Sequence record: PZ386974.1
Length of the DNA: 64,000 nucleotides
From: a phage
Reading direction: 5' to 3' (one strand)
In this document: positions 30,526-42,465 of the stretch, piece after piece
Layout of the letters: every line of letters starts with the position of its first letter
How positions within the stretch are numbered: the first letter of the stretch is position 1
Notes under the pieces: generated by a model
Seen by the model: only the letters and a program-made list of their open reading frames with translations
Database searches by the model: none
Told to the model about the DNA's origin: nothing
Translations under genes and position numbers: made by a program

Positions 30526-30806
30526 TATTTTTCTGAAGCGCCTGAAATATATTTTTCAAGACGTTGTTTCATTAGCGAGCCGTTCTTAGCGATTTCTTCT
30601 GGTTTATCGCACATACGCAACAGTGCTTCAAGCTTAACGATATCACTGGTGCGCTCAAATTTGCGAGTATCTATCTTACTAGCAAGTTCAGAAATACGTG
30701 CTAATAGACTTTCAGCTTCAACCAAAGCTGCACCTAGCTTAGTTGCAAATGTGTCGGTAGCTTCGTTAAGAATAGATTCTGATAAAAATTCACTATATGT
30801 TTTCAT
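30525..30806 (-). CDS. Internal-protein-like protein with capsid targeting sequence ([10 protein letters not shown])
   Basis: Track ORF 30525..30821; ATG at 30806; sits between e and denV, the T4 ipII/ipIII position. Confidence 0.6.
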
Positions 30807-31291
30807 ATATACGCTTTCCAAGTTCCTGTTTTAAATGTTGAGATTACGCGTTTCGCGCGATTAGGTGTCTGACGATACCATTTAGATTGGGCTAGATTTA
30901 CTGCCGCTTCGTCCCAACGTTTCTGTTGAAGCATACGAAGAGAATTAGTAAAACCGGCGACGCCTGCTACACCCATTTGGAAGACCATATTGACCAACGC
31001 ACATCGACGAACCGCATCTAAAGAATCATACACCGGTTTAAGTTTAGCATTACCCAAGATTCCGCGAACGGCTTTATCAACGTCTTCATTAAATAGCTTT
31101 TCAGCCTCATCAAGGGTAATTGTACCGTTGCATTTACGACCGATCATTCTGTCAAGTTCAGCTTTAGCTACGGCTAAAGACGGGTTCTTTGTTACTAAAT
31201 GGCCTATGCCAATCGTCCAAAAGCCTTCAGTGTCTTTGTATAAAGTCAGTCTAAGACCTTCGTCATTACGAAGCATTTCAAATATATTCAT
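30803..31291 (-). CDS. e: Lysozyme (endolysin) e
   Basis: Track ORF 30803..31303; ATG at 31291 gives [32 protein letters not shown]..., matching T4 lysozyme as recalled (catalytic E11, D20, T26 context). Confidence 0.95.
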
Positions 31292-31319
31292 AATACCTCC
31301 CACGTTTATAGGAGGTATT
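31292..31319 (-). promoter_or_regulatory. Hairpin sequestering the gene e Shine-Dalgarno, with a late-promoter-like TATAAAC in the loop
   Basis: AATACCTCC-tataaacgtg-GGAGGTATT directly before the ATG on the minus strand; same architecture as T4 gene e. Confidence 0.55.
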
Positions 31320-31325
31320 TATTAC

Positions 31326-31784
31326 TTATAGGAGTGTAGTGAGCACCTTATATAATGATTTGCCCATTACATATTCCCATTGAGAAGGTTTAATTAAAGC
31401 GAATGCATCAAATTCAGGAATCTGTCGTCCGTCTGGGAATGTATGATAGGAATTACAAACACTGTTTCTGAATTGCTCGTGCTCTACAGGGATGGTATAT
31501 AGGAACAGATGAATATTCTTATTGTCTGAGTAATGATGTTCACCTAGGTCTTTCAGGAAGGCAGGGTCATATTGTGTAAACCCAGTTTCTTCTTCGCATT
31601 CACGAATAGCGGCTTCAATAGGAGATTCACCAGGCTCGACACGTCCTTTAGGAATATCCCACCGATGAGCTAAAGAACCTTTAGGACGAGAACCAGTTAC
31701 ACGCCCCATGAATAATTCTTTATCTTCGGTAAGGAAAATAATACCGGCTGATAGTTCTTTCACTTTATTTTTCTTACTCATCAT
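31326..31784 (-). CDS. nudE: Nudix hydrolase NudE
   Basis: Nudix box GRVEPGESPIEAAIRECEEETGF; 152 aa; immediately upstream of e as in T4. Confidence 0.85.
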   Translation of the reverse strand: MMSKKNKVKELSAGIIFLTEDKELFMGRVTGSRPKGSLAHRWDIPKGRVEPGESPIEAAIRECEEETGFTQYDPAFLKDLGEHHYSDNKNIHLFLYTIPVEHEQFRNSVCNSYHTFPDGRQIPEFDAFALIKPSQWEYVMGKSLYKVLTTLL

Positions 31785-33561: not shown

Positions 33562-34518
33562 TTATTTGAAAGGTTTTACCATATGGAAATTTTGTTTGAA
33601 ACGTTTGACGTAATCGTCATGTCCTAAACTTTGGTACATACTTACTACTTTGCTGTAGTTTTCCCAGGCATATTCACGGAACCAACCGGAGGTGATGCTT
33701 GTACAGACTTTTTCCAATGCCATCATAAAACTGGCTTCAGGGTTAATTTTAAAGTCATTAGGAATTTGAGAACGTTCTAATGCTAGTACACATGATTCTT
33801 CGTATACGCCGGCCAATTTGACCATTTCTGGTAATGATTCGAACTTCTCGCGTGAGGTCATGACTTCAGAACCATCTTTCATATAAAATGTATACGCTGG
33901 ACGGTCTGTTAGTGCAATGGCTTCATGAATAGTATCATGGTCATATGTATAGATGTCATCTTTAAAGAACGCACTTTTAGAAGTGTCAAGAACAGGGTGA
34001 GCATAGTTCAAGGTTTCTTTCTGGCGTTTCAGCATAATTTCAGTAAGTTCATCGTTCAGCGTAACACCTTTACCACGAAGATACTGAATATGGTTCATAG
34101 TCTTTAAAAAGAATGGGTTATTTTTCTTGAAACGATGAGACATCTTAATTGCAAGACATATCTCAGGAGTTGCCCAGTAAAACCCGTTCAAACGGTCTTT
34201 AGTCAAATTTTTCTTGGCGTATTTTAAAAGGTCATAAGAAGACGTGAAATCTTCAGGAGTGAGTTCACCGACTAATTCACGGACATTAGTGATTGCCGGA
34301 ACGATATATGCTTCAAAATGAGTTTCGCGTCCATTATGGAAGCATTTGAAAACTTGGACATCAGGGTTATCTTGGTGAACATATACACCCATCATTTGAT
34401 TTTTGAATGCATTCCAAGAACATTGGTCCGCAATAAAGTCCCAGTCACTATTTTTGATAGCGTTAGAATCAATAAGACCGTGATAGTGAAGTGCACGAGA
34501 ACCAATAACTAACATCAT
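33562..34518 (-). CDS. Hypothetical protein; possible divergent nucleotidyltransferase fold
   Basis: 318 aa; N-terminal VIGSRALHYHGL...SDWDF loosely resembles a GS...DxD NTase motif but with longer spacing. Confidence 0.45.
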   Translation of the reverse strand: MMLVIGSRALHYHGLIDSNAIKNSDWDFIADQCSWNAFKNQMMGVYVHQDNPDVQVFKCFHNGRETHFEAYIVPAITNVRELVGELTPEDFTSSYDLLKYAKKNLTKDRLNGFYWATPEICLAIKMSHRFKKNNPFFLKTMNHIQYLRGKGVTLNDELTEIMLKRQKETLNYAHPVLDTSKSAFFKDDIYTYDHDTIHEAIALTDRPAYTFYMKDGSEVMTSREKFESLPEMVKLAGVYEESCVLALERSQIPNDFKINPEASFMMALEKVCTSITSGWFREYAWENYSKVVSMYQSLGHDDYVKRFKQNFHMVKPFK

Positions 34519-34546: not shown

Positions 34547-34798
34547 TTAAATTTCACGACATGCGATATTATATTCATCCCAGAGGTCATCGTGTGAAGC
34601 CTCTACCAATGGAACGATTGTACCGTTTATGTCTTCATTATAAGGGCAAATTGTACAGTGCGCATCTTCGAATCGGATGCCTTTGTGTTCAGATTTTTTA
34701 TAACGCATATCGAATATCTTTGCAAACTTTTCACGAGTAATGGTTTTACCAACCACTTTGGTTCCGATACTTTCGTAATAAATCATTGTGGACTCCAT
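34547..34798 (-). CDS. Hypothetical protein
   Basis: 83 aa ORF. Confidence 0.45.
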   Translation of the reverse strand: MESTMIYYESIGTKVVGKTITREKFAKIFDMRYKKSEHKGIRFEDAHCTICPYNEDINGTIVPLVEASHDDLWDEYNIACREI

Positions 34799-34799
34799 T

Positions 34800-34845
34800 T
34801 GTTTTGATAGGACTACTATAACATAGCCCTATCTTGTTGTAAACT
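34800..34845 (-). promoter_or_regulatory. PeSL (GATAGGACTA.../...TAGCCCTATC, GTTTAC -35)
   Basis: Plus strand gttttgataggactactataacatagccctatcttgttgtaaac; coordinates approximate. Confidence 0.45.
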
Positions 34846-34848
34846 GTT

Positions 34849-35046
34849 TTAGCAAGAATAACTAGATGATACCCAGCCTTGAACAGTGATACTATTGTGG
34901 GATAATGAGATAGCGTCCTGGAGATTCAGACCTGCGTTATCTTCAATCCACAATGTAACTTCTTCACGCTCTTCGGTTGCAATTTGGAACAGGTTTTCCA
35001 GAGCAGCTACTGCCGTACGTACAGCACAATCTAATTCACGAGACAT
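34849..35046 (-). CDS. Small protein, member A of a tandem paralogue triplet (C-terminal GWVSSSYSC)
   Basis: 65 aa; C-terminal motif shared with the next two ORFs. Confidence 0.5.
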   Translation of the reverse strand: MSRELDCAVRTAVAALENLFQIATEEREEVTLWIEDNAGLNLQDAISLSHNSITVQGWVSSSYSC

Positions 35047-35055
35047 ATTGTTTCC

Positions 35056-35328
35056 TTAGCAAGTGTGAGAAGATGCTACCCAACCACCGGTTTCGAGGCT
35101 CAGGTTGTAGTCGTATTGATAAACGTCAGCCCATTCAGCATAACCGTTTTTTGTACAACGTTCAAGATCGGCTTTAAGCTGTCCGGGTGAATGATAGGTT
35201 CCACCCATACCATAAGCTGGATACAAGTCGAATGTTGTGTTTTGTTTATCAGCAATTTCTTTGGCAGCCTCAATAGCTGCATAGATTTTTGCTACAGCTT
35301 CAGCCAGCTCGGTTTGTTCTTTAGACAT
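35056..35328 (-). CDS. Small protein, member B of the paralogue triplet (C-terminal GGWVASSHTC)
   Basis: 90 aa; shares IADxxxxxF...YGxGxTYxxxG and the C-terminal motif with member C. Confidence 0.5.
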   Translation of the reverse strand: MSKEQTELAEAVAKIYAAIEAAKEIADKQNTTFDLYPAYGMGGTYHSPGQLKADLERCTKNGYAEWADVYQYDYNLSLETGGWVASSHTC

Positions 35329-35337
35329 AATGATTCC

Positions 35338-35643
35338 TTAGCACAACGCAGAAGACGAAACCCAAGCACCTTCAGTAATAACGTAACCATTACCTTCACG
35401 CTTAACATCGCCACCATTATTTTCAATTTCGTTTTTCATCCACTGGGATACGATTTCACCCTTAGGATAATAAGTACGGCCGCTACCATAATCACCTACA
35501 GAAAACGATACTGCATATTGGTCTGCGATCTTTGTTGCTTCTTCTTCGATACGTTCAGCTTGATTCAGAAGTTTATAAATTGCATCTGAAGCGGATTTGG
35601 CATCATTAAACTCTGGTACTTTAATTTCAATAATCTTACTCAT
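35338..35643 (-). CDS. Small protein, member C of the paralogue triplet (C-terminal GAWVSSSALC)
   Basis: 101 aa. Confidence 0.5.
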   Translation of the reverse strand: MSKIIEIKVPEFNDAKSASDAIYKLLNQAERIEEEATKIADQYAVSFSVGDYGSGRTYYPKGEIVSQWMKNEIENNGGDVKREGNGYVITEGAWVSSSALC

Positions 35644-35741
35644 TTTCTACATTCCTTAATAAAGTTTTCGATTGTTTCATTTTCACGTCTAGCTAGGAGT
35701 TCATTATAACTAATCATTTGAGAAGCGTAAACAGTATAAAT

Positions 35742-36164
35742 TCAGTTCAGGCTTTTGCATCTTATCTCCTTAACGAATTCCATAGCTTCTTCGTATTCAT
35801 ACTTTTTAACAGCTTCATCATACTGAGCTTGGGCTTTTGCGCACTGAACTTTCCATTCTCTTAATCGGGCTCTGTGATGACGGCCTTGGTACCAATATCC
35901 CACCCAGTTAATAGGCATTAATAAAAATGGCACAATAAACGACCCGGCTATAATAAGTAAAAACACTGCATCAGACGATATAACTTCACTAGAATCTAAA
36001 ACAGCTCCTATAATCATAAAGATTAAAAATGCTAAAGCTAAAATAGGGCCAAATAGTACTTCATTTGGGATTAATTTACGCTTATATTCATACGCCCAGG
36101 GCTTACTTGGCATGTATAGGGTTGGCTTTGACATATTCTCTACATTCCATAATAAATTGCTCAA
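35742..36164 (-). CDS. Hypothetical membrane protein
   Basis: 140 aa; two TM helices then a charged C-terminal helix. Confidence 0.5.
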   Translation of the reverse strand: MSNLLWNVENMSKPTLYMPSKPWAYEYKRKLIPNEVLFGPILALAFLIFMIIGAVLDSSEVISSDAVFLLIIAGSFIVPFLLMPINWVGYWYQGRHHRARLREWKVQCAKAQAQYDEAVKKYEYEEAMEFVKEIRCKSLN

Positions 36165-37412: not shown

Positions 37413-37640
37413 TTATTTTTTAATCAAATTGACATAAAACTTGGCGTCTTCGGGGTGCATGCCTTCGCAGTATTCTTCAACCATGAACTTCTTAACAGCT
37501 TCATAAGGACCGCTAAGATTAAGCTCAGTTGTCCAGAACTTGGAATCTTGTACTGAATCGATACGAACTTCAGGGTGACGGTTGCGAATAACTTCTTCAG
37601 TGTATTCATAATCAACGACATCAATACTAACTTTAGCCAT
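37413..37640 (-). CDS. Hypothetical protein
   Basis: 75 aa ORF with ATG start. Confidence 0.5.
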   Translation of the reverse strand: MAKVSIDVVDYEYTEEVIRNRHPEVRIDSVQDSKFWTTELNLSGPYEAVKKFMVEEYCEGMHPEDAKFYVNLIKK

Positions 37641-39751: not shown

Positions 39752-39828
39752 TGGTCGAGACAGAAGGATTCTAACCTTCAACCTACGGATTAGAAGTCCG
39801 TTGCTCGATACAATTGAGCTATGCCTCG
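39752..39828 (-). tRNA. tRNA-Arg (anticodon UCU), CCA encoded
   Basis: Hand-folded cloverleaf: acceptor CGAGGCA/TGTCTCG, D-stem GCTC/GAGC, anticodon stem ACGGA/TCCGT with loop CUUCUAA, T-arm GAAGG-TTAGAAT-CCTTC. Confidence 0.75.
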
Positions 39829-39834
39829 AATATA

Positions 39835-39908
39835 TGACCCAGACCAGATTCGAACTGGTAACCTTTCCCTTATGAGGGGACTGCTGCTAACCATTGAGCT
39901 ACAGGGCC
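39835..39908 (-). tRNA. tRNA with CAU anticodon (Ile2-type as in T4, or Met)
   Basis: T-arm ACCAG-TTCGAAT-CTGGT, anticodon loop CUCAUAA, acceptor GGCCCTG/CTGGGTC with one mismatch; D-arm folds imperfectly by hand. Confidence 0.55.
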
Positions 39909-41369: not shown

Positions 41370-41415
41370 TTTGATAGGACTACTATAACATAGTCCTATC
41401 AGCATGTAAACTACT
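41370..41415 (-). promoter_or_regulatory. PeSL: GTTTAC -35, inverted repeat GATAGGACTA/TAGTCCTATC with -10 TATAGT in the loop
   Basis: Plus strand gttttgataggactactataacatagtcctatcagcatgtaaac; same arms as the 23151 copy. Confidence 0.5.
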
Positions 41416-41702
41416 TATAGAAGAGTTTTTGCAATAATTTTAAGCTGAGCTACAGAAATATGCTTAGCTTTAAACAGTGCAGTCTCTTCAGCCGGAGAGA
41501 TAACAATAGTAGCGCCATCTTTCTTAGCAGACCATCCATCCCCTAAATAAACAGTACCTTTTACTTCTTCGCCGTCAACCAGACTAATCATTGGTTTACC
41601 CTCGCGTCCTTTATTTGCTTTAATAACTTCGGAAGTAAGGGTTGCTTCGGTCAGAGTAGAAACGTTAGCAACAGGTGATATAAATTCTTTATAGGTTTTC
41701 AT
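41415..41702 (-). CDS. ipI: Internal protein I (IPI), capsid-injected anti-restriction protein
   Basis: 95 aa; MKTYKEFI... CTS and ...GREGKPMISLVDGEEVKGTVYLGDGWSAKKDGATIVISPAEETALFKAKHIS... near-identical to T4 IPI as recalled. Confidence 0.9.
   Translation of the reverse strand: MKTYKEFISPVANVSTLTEATLTSEVIKANKGREGKPMISLVDGEEVKGTVYLGDGWSAKKDGATIVISPAEETALFKAKHISVAQLKIIAKTLL

Positions 41703-41779: not shown

Positions 41780-42465
<686 letters not shown>

What the first reader, a model, noticed from the sequence alone, without database searches (positions are those of the whole stretch)
34849..35643. Tandem triplet of small paralogues with a conserved C-terminal G-W-V-S/A-S-S-x-x-C end
Three adjacent minus-strand ORFs (65, 90 and 101 aa) end in QGWVSSSYSC, GGWVASSHTC and GAWVSSSALC. 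Members B and C also share an internal IADxxxxxF...YGxGxTY block. A tandem expansion with a strictly conserved C-terminal peptide ending in Cys is unusual for phage accessory genes and suggests a shared recognition or modification tag, or a common fold with diversified N-terminal surfaces. I do not recognise this family.
Basis: seen in the sequence. Interest (0 to 1): 0.7.

Follow-up and report, generated by a model that had tools for sequence, protein, structure and literature searches.

The report
Cys-tailed mini-proteins partnered with phage nucleotidyltransferase
Three neighbouring small phage genes belong to a large, unnamed family of acidic mini-proteins that all end in the same Trp-Ser-Ser-Cys tail. 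They are almost always encoded just upstream of one particular nucleotide-transferring enzyme, so the pair looks like an undescribed two-part phage system.

Summary
Three adjacent minus-strand ORFs of 65, 90 and 101 aa end in QGWVSSSYSC, GGWVASSHTC and GAWVSSSALC. The motif occurs nowhere else in the six-frame translation of the window (about 0.001 expected by chance). The three are true paralogues under purifying selection.

They belong to a phage family of at least 243 clusters at 50% identity. Members have a median length of 88 aa and a median pI of 4.5. In about 90% of those listed, the protein ends W-x-[SA]-S-S-x-x-C, with the Cys as the last residue. The family has no Pfam or NCBIfam model, no solved or fold-level relative, and no paper in the searched library.

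The new result is a conserved gene pairing. Tail-bearing ORFs (1-5 per locus) lie upstream, on the same strand, of a DUF7277/DUF7275 protein; in the window this is 33562-34518. The pairing held in 73 of 80 enzyme-anchored loci, 8 of 8 small-protein-anchored contexts and 24 of 24 tail-anchored loci. None of 175 tail ORFs lay downstream or on the opposite strand. The partner models confidently as a Pol-beta-type nucleotidyltransferase closest to the MenT1, MenT3 and MenT4 toxins.

I infer that the tail engages this enzyme's active site. A pseudo-substrate regulator role seems most likely, with covalent modification a close rival. That mechanism is untested.

The parts
35338..35643 (-). Member C (101 aa). 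It has an N-terminal helix, the IAD...YGSGRTYY hairpin, and the tail GAWVSSSALC.
   Evidence: ORF and translation. phrog_899 at E 2e-22. AF2 pLDDT 91.5. dN/dS 0.16-0.31.
35056..35328 (-). Member B (90 aa). It has the helix, the IAD...YGMGGTYH hairpin, and the tail GGWVASSHTC.
   Evidence: phrog_899 at E 1e-18. dN/dS 0.30-0.41. tblastn finds it in 282 phage records.
34849..35046 (-). Member A (65 aa). This is a shortened paralogue with the helix and the tail QGWVSSSYSC but no YGxGxTY block.
   Evidence: phrog_4882 at E 8e-37. Its body links to B-type proteins by iterative HMM once the tail is removed. dN/dS 0.27-0.42.
35341..35364 (-). Tail codons of member C (WVSSSALC), directly before the stop codon.
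   Evidence: Family logo.
35059..35082 (-). Tail codons of member B (WVASSHTC).
34852..34875 (-). Tail codons of member A (WVSSSYSC).
33562..34518 (-). Partner enzyme (318 aa, DUF7277 + DUF7275, phrog_2141). It is a Pol-beta-type nucleotidyltransferase with invariant G6-S7, D25-x-D27, K125, H128, K139, H194-D195, H198, E240-E241 and E248-R249.
35703..35731 (-). Sigma-70/early-type promoter-like site upstream of member C (TTTACG-17-TATAAT).
   Evidence: Consensus scan only. The number of sites in the region does not exceed the shuffled expectation.
34815..34843 (-). Second promoter-like site, between member A and the 83-aa ORF and enzyme (TTTACA-17-TATAGT with TG).
   Evidence: Consensus scan only.
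34547..34798 (-). 83-aa ORF between the trio and the enzyme (phrog_3723). It is a lineage-specific insert and not a conserved part of the module.
   Evidence: Homologues were found upstream of the enzyme in only 4 of 83 loci, all close relatives. PHROG hit.

Best explanation
A, B and C are paralogous early-gene products. Together with the 318-aa nucleotidyltransferase (NTase) encoded just downstream, they form a conserved two-component phage module.

Shown: the family and its invariant tail; the near-obligatory upstream, same-strand linkage to the enzyme gene; and the NTase fold and catalytic motifs of the enzyme.

Inferred: the conserved end W-x-S-S-S-x-x-C-COOH, presented on a small helix-plus-sheet scaffold, is the element by which each paralogue engages the enzyme's catalytic cleft as a pseudo-substrate. 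In this picture the Trp takes the place of a stacked base. A Ser hydroxyl takes the place of the acceptor 3'-OH. The terminal Cys thiol and carboxylate sit at the Mg/triphosphate site. The acidic body occupies the surface that would otherwise bind RNA.

The most likely consequence is antitoxin-like control of an RNA/tRNA-3'-end-modifying NTase. Control could mean inhibition, timing or retargeting. This resembles MenA1 acting on MenT1, but uses an unrelated protein and a different contact element. Tandem copies (1-5 per phage) would supply dosage or diversified versions.
For: 1. Linkage. In 80 loci anchored on the enzyme, 175 tail-bearing ORFs were found and all are upstream on the enzyme's strand (175/1112 ORFs, versus 0/868 downstream and 0/1930 opposite). 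73 of 80 loci have at least one. In 8 of 8 distant contexts anchored on the small protein, the enzyme gene follows. The gap is 1-69 nt in six of them; in the other two, one or two ORFs intervene. The other neighbours are not conserved. In a body-independent DNA scan for the tail plus a stop codon, 24 of 24 family-positive hits with enough flank have the enzyme downstream.

3. Analogy. menA1 encodes a 68-aa helical antitoxin directly upstream of menT1, and it blocks the active site of MenT1 (PMC10435456, PMC11375011).

4. The small proteins are acidic: median pI 4.5 and net charge -8.

5. They evolve faster than the enzyme: about 50% identity where the enzyme is about 75%.

6. Remote enzyme homologues lack any tail ORF but keep the catalytic core, and they sit beside RNA ligase 2, polynucleotide kinase or tRNA clusters. 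The enzyme therefore probably has its own RNA substrate, and the small proteins are an add-on.

7. Member A shows that the helix plus the tail is the minimal conserved unit.
Against: No physical interaction, activity or toxicity has been tested, and no complex model could be run here. Tandem arrays of up to five diversified 'antitoxins' are atypical for toxin-antitoxin pairs. A lytic phage has no obvious need for an addiction module. Chemically reactive invariant residues (Ser-Ser and a Cys that must be the very last residue) hint at chemistry rather than docking. The enzyme does not match the DUF1814/AbiEii Pfam model and lacks the MenT phospho-acceptor position. The small proteins show no sequence or fold similarity to MenA1. 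At least one enzyme with all invariant residues stands alone (L022). In the window, an extra ORF and a promoter-like site separate the trio from the enzyme.
Confidence: 0.4

Rival explanations
1. Covalent-substrate model. The NTase transfers a nucleotide (or a chain of nucleotides) onto a tail Ser hydroxyl, or onto the Cys, of each paralogue. The tail is then a post-translational modification site shared by several effector mini-proteins. The modified form is the active species, or the modification switches it off.
For: The invariant residues are exactly nucleophilic ones (Ser+3, Ser+4 and the terminal Cys). Several diversified paralogues share one tail next to one enzyme, which is the usual pattern for precursor-plus-modifying-enzyme clusters. 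From established knowledge, Pol-beta-fold NTases do nucleotidylylate proteins: GlnE, GlnD, DrrA, and MntA on HepT. The linkage statistics are the same as for the best explanation.
Against: Remote enzyme homologues work without any such partner. The enzyme's closest structural relatives act on tRNA or antibiotics, not proteins. AF2 shows the tail folded into the sheet rather than free. No mass-spectrometry evidence exists.
Confidence: 0.3
2. Adaptor or specificity-subunit model. The tail is a docking peptide for a non-catalytic site of the enzyme. The variable bodies recruit different targets, for example different tRNAs or host proteins.
For: The conserved tail combined with a variable acidic middle, and 1-5 diversified copies per enzyme. 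The linkage evidence is as above.
Against: The bodies are tiny and their variable region is low-complexity D/E/S/G/Y, which makes a poor specific recognition surface. The strict requirement for Cys as the last residue is hard to explain by docking alone.
Confidence: 0.12
3. RiPP-like maturation. The enzyme activates a tail Ser by nucleotidylylation for beta-elimination, and the terminal Cys adds to the resulting dehydroalanine. This would give a C-terminal lanthionine-type ring, since Ser-x-x-Cys-COOH is the spacing seen in AviCys/lanthionine rings.
For: The S-x-x-C-COOH spacing holds in 135 of 142 members. Precursor-like genes lie in tandem next to one enzyme. The enzyme's C-terminal domain carries invariant His, Asp, Glu and Cys residues (H194, D195, H198, C272) that could bind a metal.
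Against: No LanB, LanM, LanKC, LanC, LanD or YcaO-like domain is present in the enzyme or the neighbours. Tail spacing is flexible in some phages (SSC, SSxC). The protein is predicted to be folded with the tail in a strand. C272 is lost in remote homologues.
Confidence: 0.06
4. Independent small proteins. The tail serves the mini-protein's own function, such as metal binding, disulfide- or metal-mediated oligomerisation, or a C-terminal degron. On this view the adjacency to the NTase gene is only shared regulation or hitch-hiking.
For: The confident stand-alone fold includes the tail. Half of the members have the terminal Cys as their only Cys, which is compatible with intermolecular metal or disulfide sites. 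RB69 carries a truncated, tail-less copy of C, so individual copies are dispensable.
Against: Hitch-hiking cannot explain the linkage. It holds across Straboviridae, rV5-like, PolA-type and jumbo phages whose other neighbours differ entirely, always with the same order and strand.
Confidence: 0.08

Closest known systems
MenA1-MenT1 (MenAT1) and the wider MenAT/AbiE nucleotidyltransferase toxin-antitoxin systems (DUF1814)
   Same: A small upstream gene is followed by an NTase gene. The enzyme's best structural matches are MenT1, MenT3 and MenT4. It has the Pol-beta GS...DxD motif plus a downstream invariant Lys at similar spacing. The small partner has a long helix and is acidic. The partner evolves faster than the enzyme.
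   Different: The enzyme has no sequence-level match to DUF1814 and is about 120 aa longer than MenT1, with a distinctive His/Asp/Glu-rich C-terminal domain (DUF7275). The MenT phospho-acceptor Ser/Thr is not conserved. The small proteins are unrelated to MenA1 or AbiEi in sequence and fold. They come in 1-5 tandem copies and carry an invariant C-terminal W-x-S-S-S-x-x-C that has no counterpart in MenA proteins. The module is encoded by lytic phages, not bacterial chromosomes.
MntA-HepT (MNT-HEPN, type VII toxin-antitoxin system) and GlnD/GlnE protein nucleotidylyltransferases
   Same: A Pol-beta-fold NTase is paired with a small protein on which it acts. This gives a precedent for NMP transfer to a protein hydroxyl.
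   Different: Those enzymes modify Tyr on unrelated substrates (HepT, PII, glutamine synthetase). Here the candidate acceptor would be a Ser next to a C-terminal Cys, and no modification has been shown.
RlaP (PF10127), the RNA-ligase-associated Pol-beta NTase of phages and bacteria
   Same: It is a phage-borne Pol-beta NTase found near RNA-repair genes. Remote relatives of the window's enzyme also sit next to RNA ligase 2, polynucleotide kinase, metallophosphoesterase genes or tRNA clusters.
   Different: It is a different Pfam family; the window's enzyme shows no PF10127 hit. RlaP has no described small Cys-tailed partner.
RiPP precursor clusters (lanthipeptides with a C-terminal AviCys, e.g. 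epidermin)
   Same: Tandem small ORFs share a conserved Ser/Cys-containing end beside one enzyme gene. The Ser-x-x-Cys-COOH spacing matches.
   Different: The conserved end sits in a predicted folded domain. There are no Lan-type or other known RiPP enzymes nearby. The proteins are cytoplasmic early phage products.
PHROG families phrog_899, phrog_4882 (small proteins) and phrog_2141 (enzyme)
   Same: The window's proteins are members, with E-values from 1e-18 to 1e-150.
   Different: All three PHROGs are 'unknown function'. The PHROG entries carry no annotation that links them, and none mentions the tail.

Membership tests
Cys-tailed mini-protein family (phrog_899 / phrog_4882; no Pfam model) | Significant profile match to the family | tested here: met
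   phrog_899 matches C at E 1.8e-22 and B at 9.8e-19; phrog_4882 matches A at 7.7e-37. The exhaustive profile search finds 243 representative clusters.
Cys-tailed mini-protein family (phrog_899 / phrog_4882; no Pfam model) | C-terminus W-x-[SAP]-S-S-x-x-C with Cys as the last residue | tested here: met
   All three window ORFs have it. Among the 142 motif-bearing members (of 152 proteins on file), Cys is terminal in 135.
Cys-tailed mini-protein family (phrog_899 / phrog_4882; no Pfam model) | Encoded upstream, on the same strand, of a DUF7277/DUF7275 gene | tested here: met
   In the window, the trio lies at 34849-35643 and the enzyme at 33562-34518. Elsewhere the pattern holds in 73/80, 8/8 and 24/24 loci.
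MenT/AbiEii DUF1814 NTase toxins (partner enzyme) | Match to the Pfam AbiEii/DUF1814 model | tested here: not met
   Only DUF7275 and DUF7277 were reported at E <= 0.1. The enzyme profile has no sequence match to any PDB chain and no PADLOC hit.
MenT/AbiEii DUF1814 NTase toxins (partner enzyme) | Pol-beta NTase motifs I/II (hG[GS]...DxD) and a bi-lobed NTase fold | tested here: met
MenT/AbiEii DUF1814 NTase toxins (partner enzyme) | Motif III Lys and motif IV Asp (MenT1 K137/D152; MenT3 K189/D211) | tested here: inconclusive
   Invariant K125 lies 100 residues after D25, compared with 96-109 in the MenT proteins (PMC7450476, PMC10435456). No invariant Asp lies 15-22 residues after it. No structural superposition was available.
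MenT/AbiEii DUF1814 NTase toxins (partner enzyme) | Phospho-acceptor Ser/Thr two residues before the first catalytic Asp (MenT1 T39, MenT3 S78) | tested here: not met
   The residue at that position is N, P, I or P in the four aligned homologues. The feature itself is described in PMC11375011.
MenT/AbiEii DUF1814 NTase toxins (partner enzyme) | Nucleotide addition to tRNA 3' ends, and growth inhibition that is relieved by the upstream gene product | not testable with these tools
   This needs biochemistry and toxicity assays.
MenA1-type antitoxins (small proteins) | Sequence or fold similarity to MenA1 | tested here: not met
RiPP precursors (lanthipeptide/AviCys type) | A known RiPP maturation enzyme (LanB/M/KC/C/D, YcaO, rSAM) in the neighbourhood | tested here: not met
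   The Pfam scan of 20 neighbouring ORFs shows none.
RiPP precursors (lanthipeptide/AviCys type) | Ser/Thr plus Cys in a terminal core peptide that is not part of a folded domain | tested here: inconclusive
   Ser-Ser-Ser-x-x-Cys is present. However, AF2 places W-V-S-S in the last beta-strand with pLDDT about 87.
ThiS/MoaD-type sulfur carriers | Beta-grasp fold and a C-terminal Gly-Gly | tested here: not met
   The C-terminus is Cys, not Gly-Gly. No beta-grasp hits appear in the fold searches.
RlaP NTases (PF10127) | Match to PF10127 | tested here: not met
   No such hit appears. The family definition comes from PMC12776372 and PMC7824862.

The most novel reading that the evidence does not exclude
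The tail is the acceptor site of a new phage protein modification. A MenT-like nucleotidyltransferase would attach nucleotide(s) to a Ser, or act on the terminal Cys, of a family of diversified mini-proteins. This would create protein-nucleotide conjugates (or a derived ring) that act early in infection, for example as decoys or inhibitors of host RNA-targeting defences.
Probability: 0.3. Interest if true: 0.85.

Novelty: new variant of a known kind. Interest (0 to 1): 0.72.

Why it matters
The module is common. The enzyme is present once per genome in 734 sequenced phages of many hosts, and the small-protein family has at least 243 clusters at 50% identity. Even so, both components are annotated as hypothetical, and no paper in the searched library mentions them.

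The work links a conserved phage enzyme of MenT/AbiEii-like fold to a dedicated family of partners defined by an invariant C-terminal Trp-Ser-Ser-Cys end. If the partners regulate the enzyme, this is a phage-borne counterpart of NTase toxin-antitoxin control built from unrelated parts. If they are substrates, it is a new protein modification.

Either outcome gives a concrete handle on a block of early genes in the hyperplastic region of T-even-type phages. In the window, that block lies a few kb from the tRNA genes and the anti-defence genes IPI and Acb1. The question is directly testable in RB69-type phages, which are easy to manipulate.

Tried and rejected
- **Known small-protein families:** Pfam, NCBIfam and PADLOC scans of the three proteins found nothing.
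- **Sequence search against PDB:** the family profile returned only designed helices, and the enzyme profile returned nothing.
- **T4 counterpart:** T4 e.2 and e.3, at the syntenic position, are unrelated to the family. I did not search the whole T4 genome.
- **The 83-aa ORF as a third module component:** rejected, because it is present in only 4 of 83 loci.
- **N-terminal extensions of longer family members:** no recognisable domains.
- **The search for related loci with the small-protein alignment:** failed because no stretch was conserved enough. I replaced it with enzyme-anchored loci and a tail DNA-pattern scan.
- **Conserved 3' ends as a DNA/RNA element or translational-coupling artefact:** rejected, because codons differ between copies and the motif persists across very distant phages.
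- **Sulfur-carrier idea:** this was prompted by a 'sulfurtransferase' label in phage F27. That label belongs to the neighbouring membrane-protein ORF, and nothing here supports it.
- **RlaP identity of the enzyme:** rejected, because RlaP is a different Pfam family.
- **Residues that differ in partner-less enzymes (D193, Y172, H174, Y190, Y209):** noted as candidate contact residues, but the comparison is confounded by phylogenetic distance.
- **Literature searches:** DUF7275, DUF7277, the PHROG ids, RB69ORF137c-139c, and combinations of C-terminal cysteine, nucleotidyltransferase and phage returned nothing relevant.

Full report
**1. Observation**

The three ORFs exist as described, on the minus strand. 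A is at 34849-35046 (65 aa), B at 35056-35328 (90 aa) and C at 35338-35643 (101 aa). They end QGWVSSSYSC, GGWVASSHTC and GAWVSSSALC. B and C share IAD-x5-F...YG-x-G-x-TY.

A six-frame search finds W[VIL][SAT]SS only three times in the 64-kb window, each time eight codons before a stop. Residue frequencies predict 9e-4 such events, and 200 shuffles gave none.

The Ser codons differ among the copies (TCT, TCG, TCA, AGT), so selection acts on the peptide and not on a DNA repeat. dN/dS against orthologues in related phages is 0.16-0.42. Each ORF has a Shine-Dalgarno sequence, and a promoter-like site (TTTACG-17-TATAAT) precedes C.

With its last ten residues removed, A retrieves B-type proteins by iterative HMM search. 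A is therefore a shortened paralogue that keeps the N-terminal helix and the tail but has lost the Gly-rich hairpin.

**2. Genomic setting**

The window comes from a Mosigvirus-type (RB69-like) T-even phage, 97-98% identical to many E. coli and Shigella phages. The trio sits in the plastic segment between lysozyme e (30803-31303) and NudE (31326-31784) on one side. On the other side are two tRNA genes (39752-39908), IPI (41415-41702) and Acb1 (41780-42235). T4 has unrelated genes (e.2, e.3) at the corresponding place.

**3. The small-protein family**

PHROG places B and C in phrog_899 and A in phrog_4882. Both are 'unknown function'. Pfam, NCBIfam and PADLOC have nothing.

An exhaustive profile search of 1.84 billion representative proteins finds 243 clusters at E <= 1e-3. 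Of the 152 proteins on file, 142 end W-x-[SAP]-S-S-x-x-C. Among these 142 (selected by the motif):
- Ser+4 is present in 135.
- Cys is the very last residue in 135.
- 73 contain no other Cys.
- The median length is 88 aa.

The consensus has four parts. It starts with an amphipathic helix ending ...EAExIADE. A hairpin F-x-F...YGMGGTYY follows. Next comes a variable D/E/S/G/Y-rich linker with a median length of 25 aa. The sequence ends G-x-W-x-S-S-S-x-x-C. The proteins are acidic, with a median pI of 4.5 and net charge of -8; A, B and C have pI 4.2, 4.7 and 4.7.

**4. The conserved partnership (the main new result)**

Neighbourhoods of three distant members all showed a DUF7277+DUF7275 gene immediately downstream. 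Five more did the same. In six of the eight contexts the gap is 1-69 nt; in the other two, one or two ORFs lie between. Two of the three intervening ORFs are themselves tail-bearing. The remaining neighbours differ completely; one of the phages has a family-A polymerase.

Anchoring on the enzyme instead gave 80 IMG/VR loci:
- With the strict motif, 65 loci carry 1-4 tail ORFs upstream.
- Nine of the other 15 carry variant tails such as GWNSSNC, GWYSSHC, SGWDSSSC and GEWLYSSESC.
- With the relaxed motif there are 175 tail ORFs. All are upstream on the enzyme's strand: 175/1112 ORFs there, 0/868 downstream and 0/1930 opposite.
- 73 of 80 loci have at least one, with 1-5 copies each.

A third test ignored the protein body. 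It scanned viral contigs for TGGNNNTCNTCNTCNNNNNNNTGYTAA. Of 137 matches, 79 do not end a 45-220 aa ORF and are chance. Of the ORF-ending matches recognised by the family HMM that had at least 2.5 kb of downstream sequence, 24 of 24 have the enzyme downstream.

In the window the enzyme is the 318-aa ORF at 33562-34518. It is separated from A by an 83-aa ORF that occurs only in close relatives (4 of 83 loci).

**5. The partner enzyme**

It matches DUF7275 (E 5e-79), DUF7277 (E 1.5e-27) and phrog_2141. It has more than 2,200 homologues, all unnamed. It occurs once per genome in 734 sequenced phages, including Straboviridae of many hosts, rV5-like phages, Pseudomonas phages, a Xanthomonas jumbo phage and a roseophage. 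Remote versions occur in Streptomyces and Gordonia phages.

So it is a Pol-beta-type nucleotidyltransferase of the minimal-NTase/AbiEii-like kind. Residues invariant across all homologues are G6-S7, D25-x-D27, K125, H128, K139, H194-D195, H198, E240-E241 and E248-R249.

It is not a sequence-level member of DUF1814 or RlaP. The MenT phospho-acceptor position is not conserved.

The most remote homologues (26-34% identity) keep this core but have no tail ORFs. They sit beside RNA ligase 2 plus a metallophosphoesterase (DSS3_VP1), polynucleotide kinase (Muntaha) or a tRNA cluster (WilliamBoone). RNA ligase genes are also close to the module in L092 and L093. The enzyme family is therefore broader than the partnership and probably has an RNA-end substrate of its own.

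**6. Mechanism**

Shown: the family, the tail, the linkage and the NTase fold.

Inferred: the tail is the element that meets the enzyme. I favour a pseudo-substrate regulator model at about 0.4, for these reasons:
- The gene order matches MenA1-MenT1, where a 68-aa helical antitoxin encoded upstream blocks the NTase cleft (PMC10435456, PMC11375011).
- The small proteins are acidic.
- They evolve faster than the enzyme.
- Partner-less enzyme homologues exist.

A covalent-substrate model follows closely at about 0.3. In that model a nucleotide is transferred to a tail Ser or to the Cys. The invariant residues are nucleophiles, the Cys must be terminal, and several diversified paralogues share one tail beside one enzyme. 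Adaptor, RiPP-like ring formation and fully independent function are less likely, for the reasons given under rivals.

Residues that are invariant in partnered enzymes but altered in partner-less ones are candidate contact residues. These are D193, Y172, H174, Y190 and Y209. This is only a lead, because the comparison is confounded by phylogenetic distance.

**7. Comparison and novelty**

The closest known systems are the MenAT/AbiE NTase toxin-antitoxin pairs. The resemblance covers the enzyme fold and the operon logic, not membership. The DUF1814 model and the phospho-acceptor feature were tested and not met, and the small proteins are unrelated to MenA1.

No paper in the searched library mentions DUF7275, DUF7277, these PHROGs, the RB69 ORFs or such a tail. 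I therefore rate this a new variant of a known kind (NTase plus small partner). Its partner family and its defining C-terminal Cys tail have no described counterpart.

**8. Limits**

There is no experimental evidence, and no complex prediction could be run. Enzyme-fold conclusions rest on AF2 models. Promoter calls are consensus matches only. Copy counts may include a few overlapping-ORF artefacts. The RNA-repair neighbourhood is an impression from about a dozen contexts, not a statistic.

Noticed in passing
window 33562-34518 (-); L214, L215, L216, L091, L092, L093: Homologues of the DUF7277/DUF7275 enzyme repeatedly lie near RNA-repair or tRNA genes. Examples are RNA ligase 2 plus a metallophosphoesterase (roseophage DSS3_VP1), polynucleotide kinase (Streptomyces phage Muntaha), a tRNA cluster (Gordonia phage WilliamBoone), and RNA ligase or Metallophos genes in metagenomic phages. 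In the window, tRNA genes lie about 4 kb from the trio (about 5 kb from the enzyme gene). This suggests an RNA-end substrate, but I did not quantify it.
   Followed up: partly
P0002 (RB69ORF139c) and P0005, orthologues of window 35338-35643: In phage RB69 itself the orthologue of member C is truncated to 71 aa and lacks the tail. A second truncated variant of 64 aa exists in a metagenome. Individual paralogues therefore seem dispensable or redundant.
   Followed up: no
window 34547-34798 (-): The 83-aa ORF between the trio and the enzyme (phrog_3723, unknown function) contains Cys and His residues (…AHCTICPY…, …ACREI). It is present only in close relatives. A promoter-like site (34843-34815) precedes it.
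   Followed up: partly
window 41415-41702 and 41780-42235 (-): The anti-defence genes IPI (T4 nuclease inhibitor, E 1e-50) and Acb1 (anti-CBASS, E 1e-58) lie a few kb upstream on the same strand. Two tRNA genes, Arg-TCT and a CAT-anticodon tRNA, are at 39752-39908.
   Followed up: no
window 37413-37640 (-): A full-length Phage_FRD3 homologue (E 1e-38) sits in this e.x-type region, not next to frd as it does in T4.
   Followed up: no
window 35742-36164 (-); L001 7579-7974: The membrane-protein ORF just upstream of member C is labelled 'sulfurtransferase' in some GenBank records (e.g. phage F27). Here it shows only weak Yip1/LapA-like hits, so the label looks unsupported. Relatives also carry an extra ~360-bp e.3-like ORF between it and member C that the window lacks.
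   Followed up: no
L039, L040, L042, L067 (one lineage); L022: A few enzyme genes have no tail-bearing ORF within 4 kb upstream. In the L039/L067 lineage the otherwise invariant D193, Y209, W279 and E282 are replaced. L022 keeps every invariant residue and yet stands alone.
   Followed up: partly
L082 and L086 (2500-3990); L037, L044, L061, L075: Some phages carry four or five tandem tail-bearing ORFs. The bodies include 139-159 aa and 52-77 aa types that BLAST does not link to the main family, and the tails have shortened spacing (W-x-S-S-x-C, W-x-x-S-S-C). The W-to-C distance is therefore flexible, and the tail may have spread onto very divergent bodies.
   Followed up: partly
P0084 (1446 aa) and P0085 (953 aa), hits: Two very long proteins match the GDYGSGRTYY region of the profile in 5-6 repeated stretches. 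This probably reflects YD/Rhs-like beta-hairpin repeats, so the family's hairpin may resemble that repeat unit.
   Followed up: no
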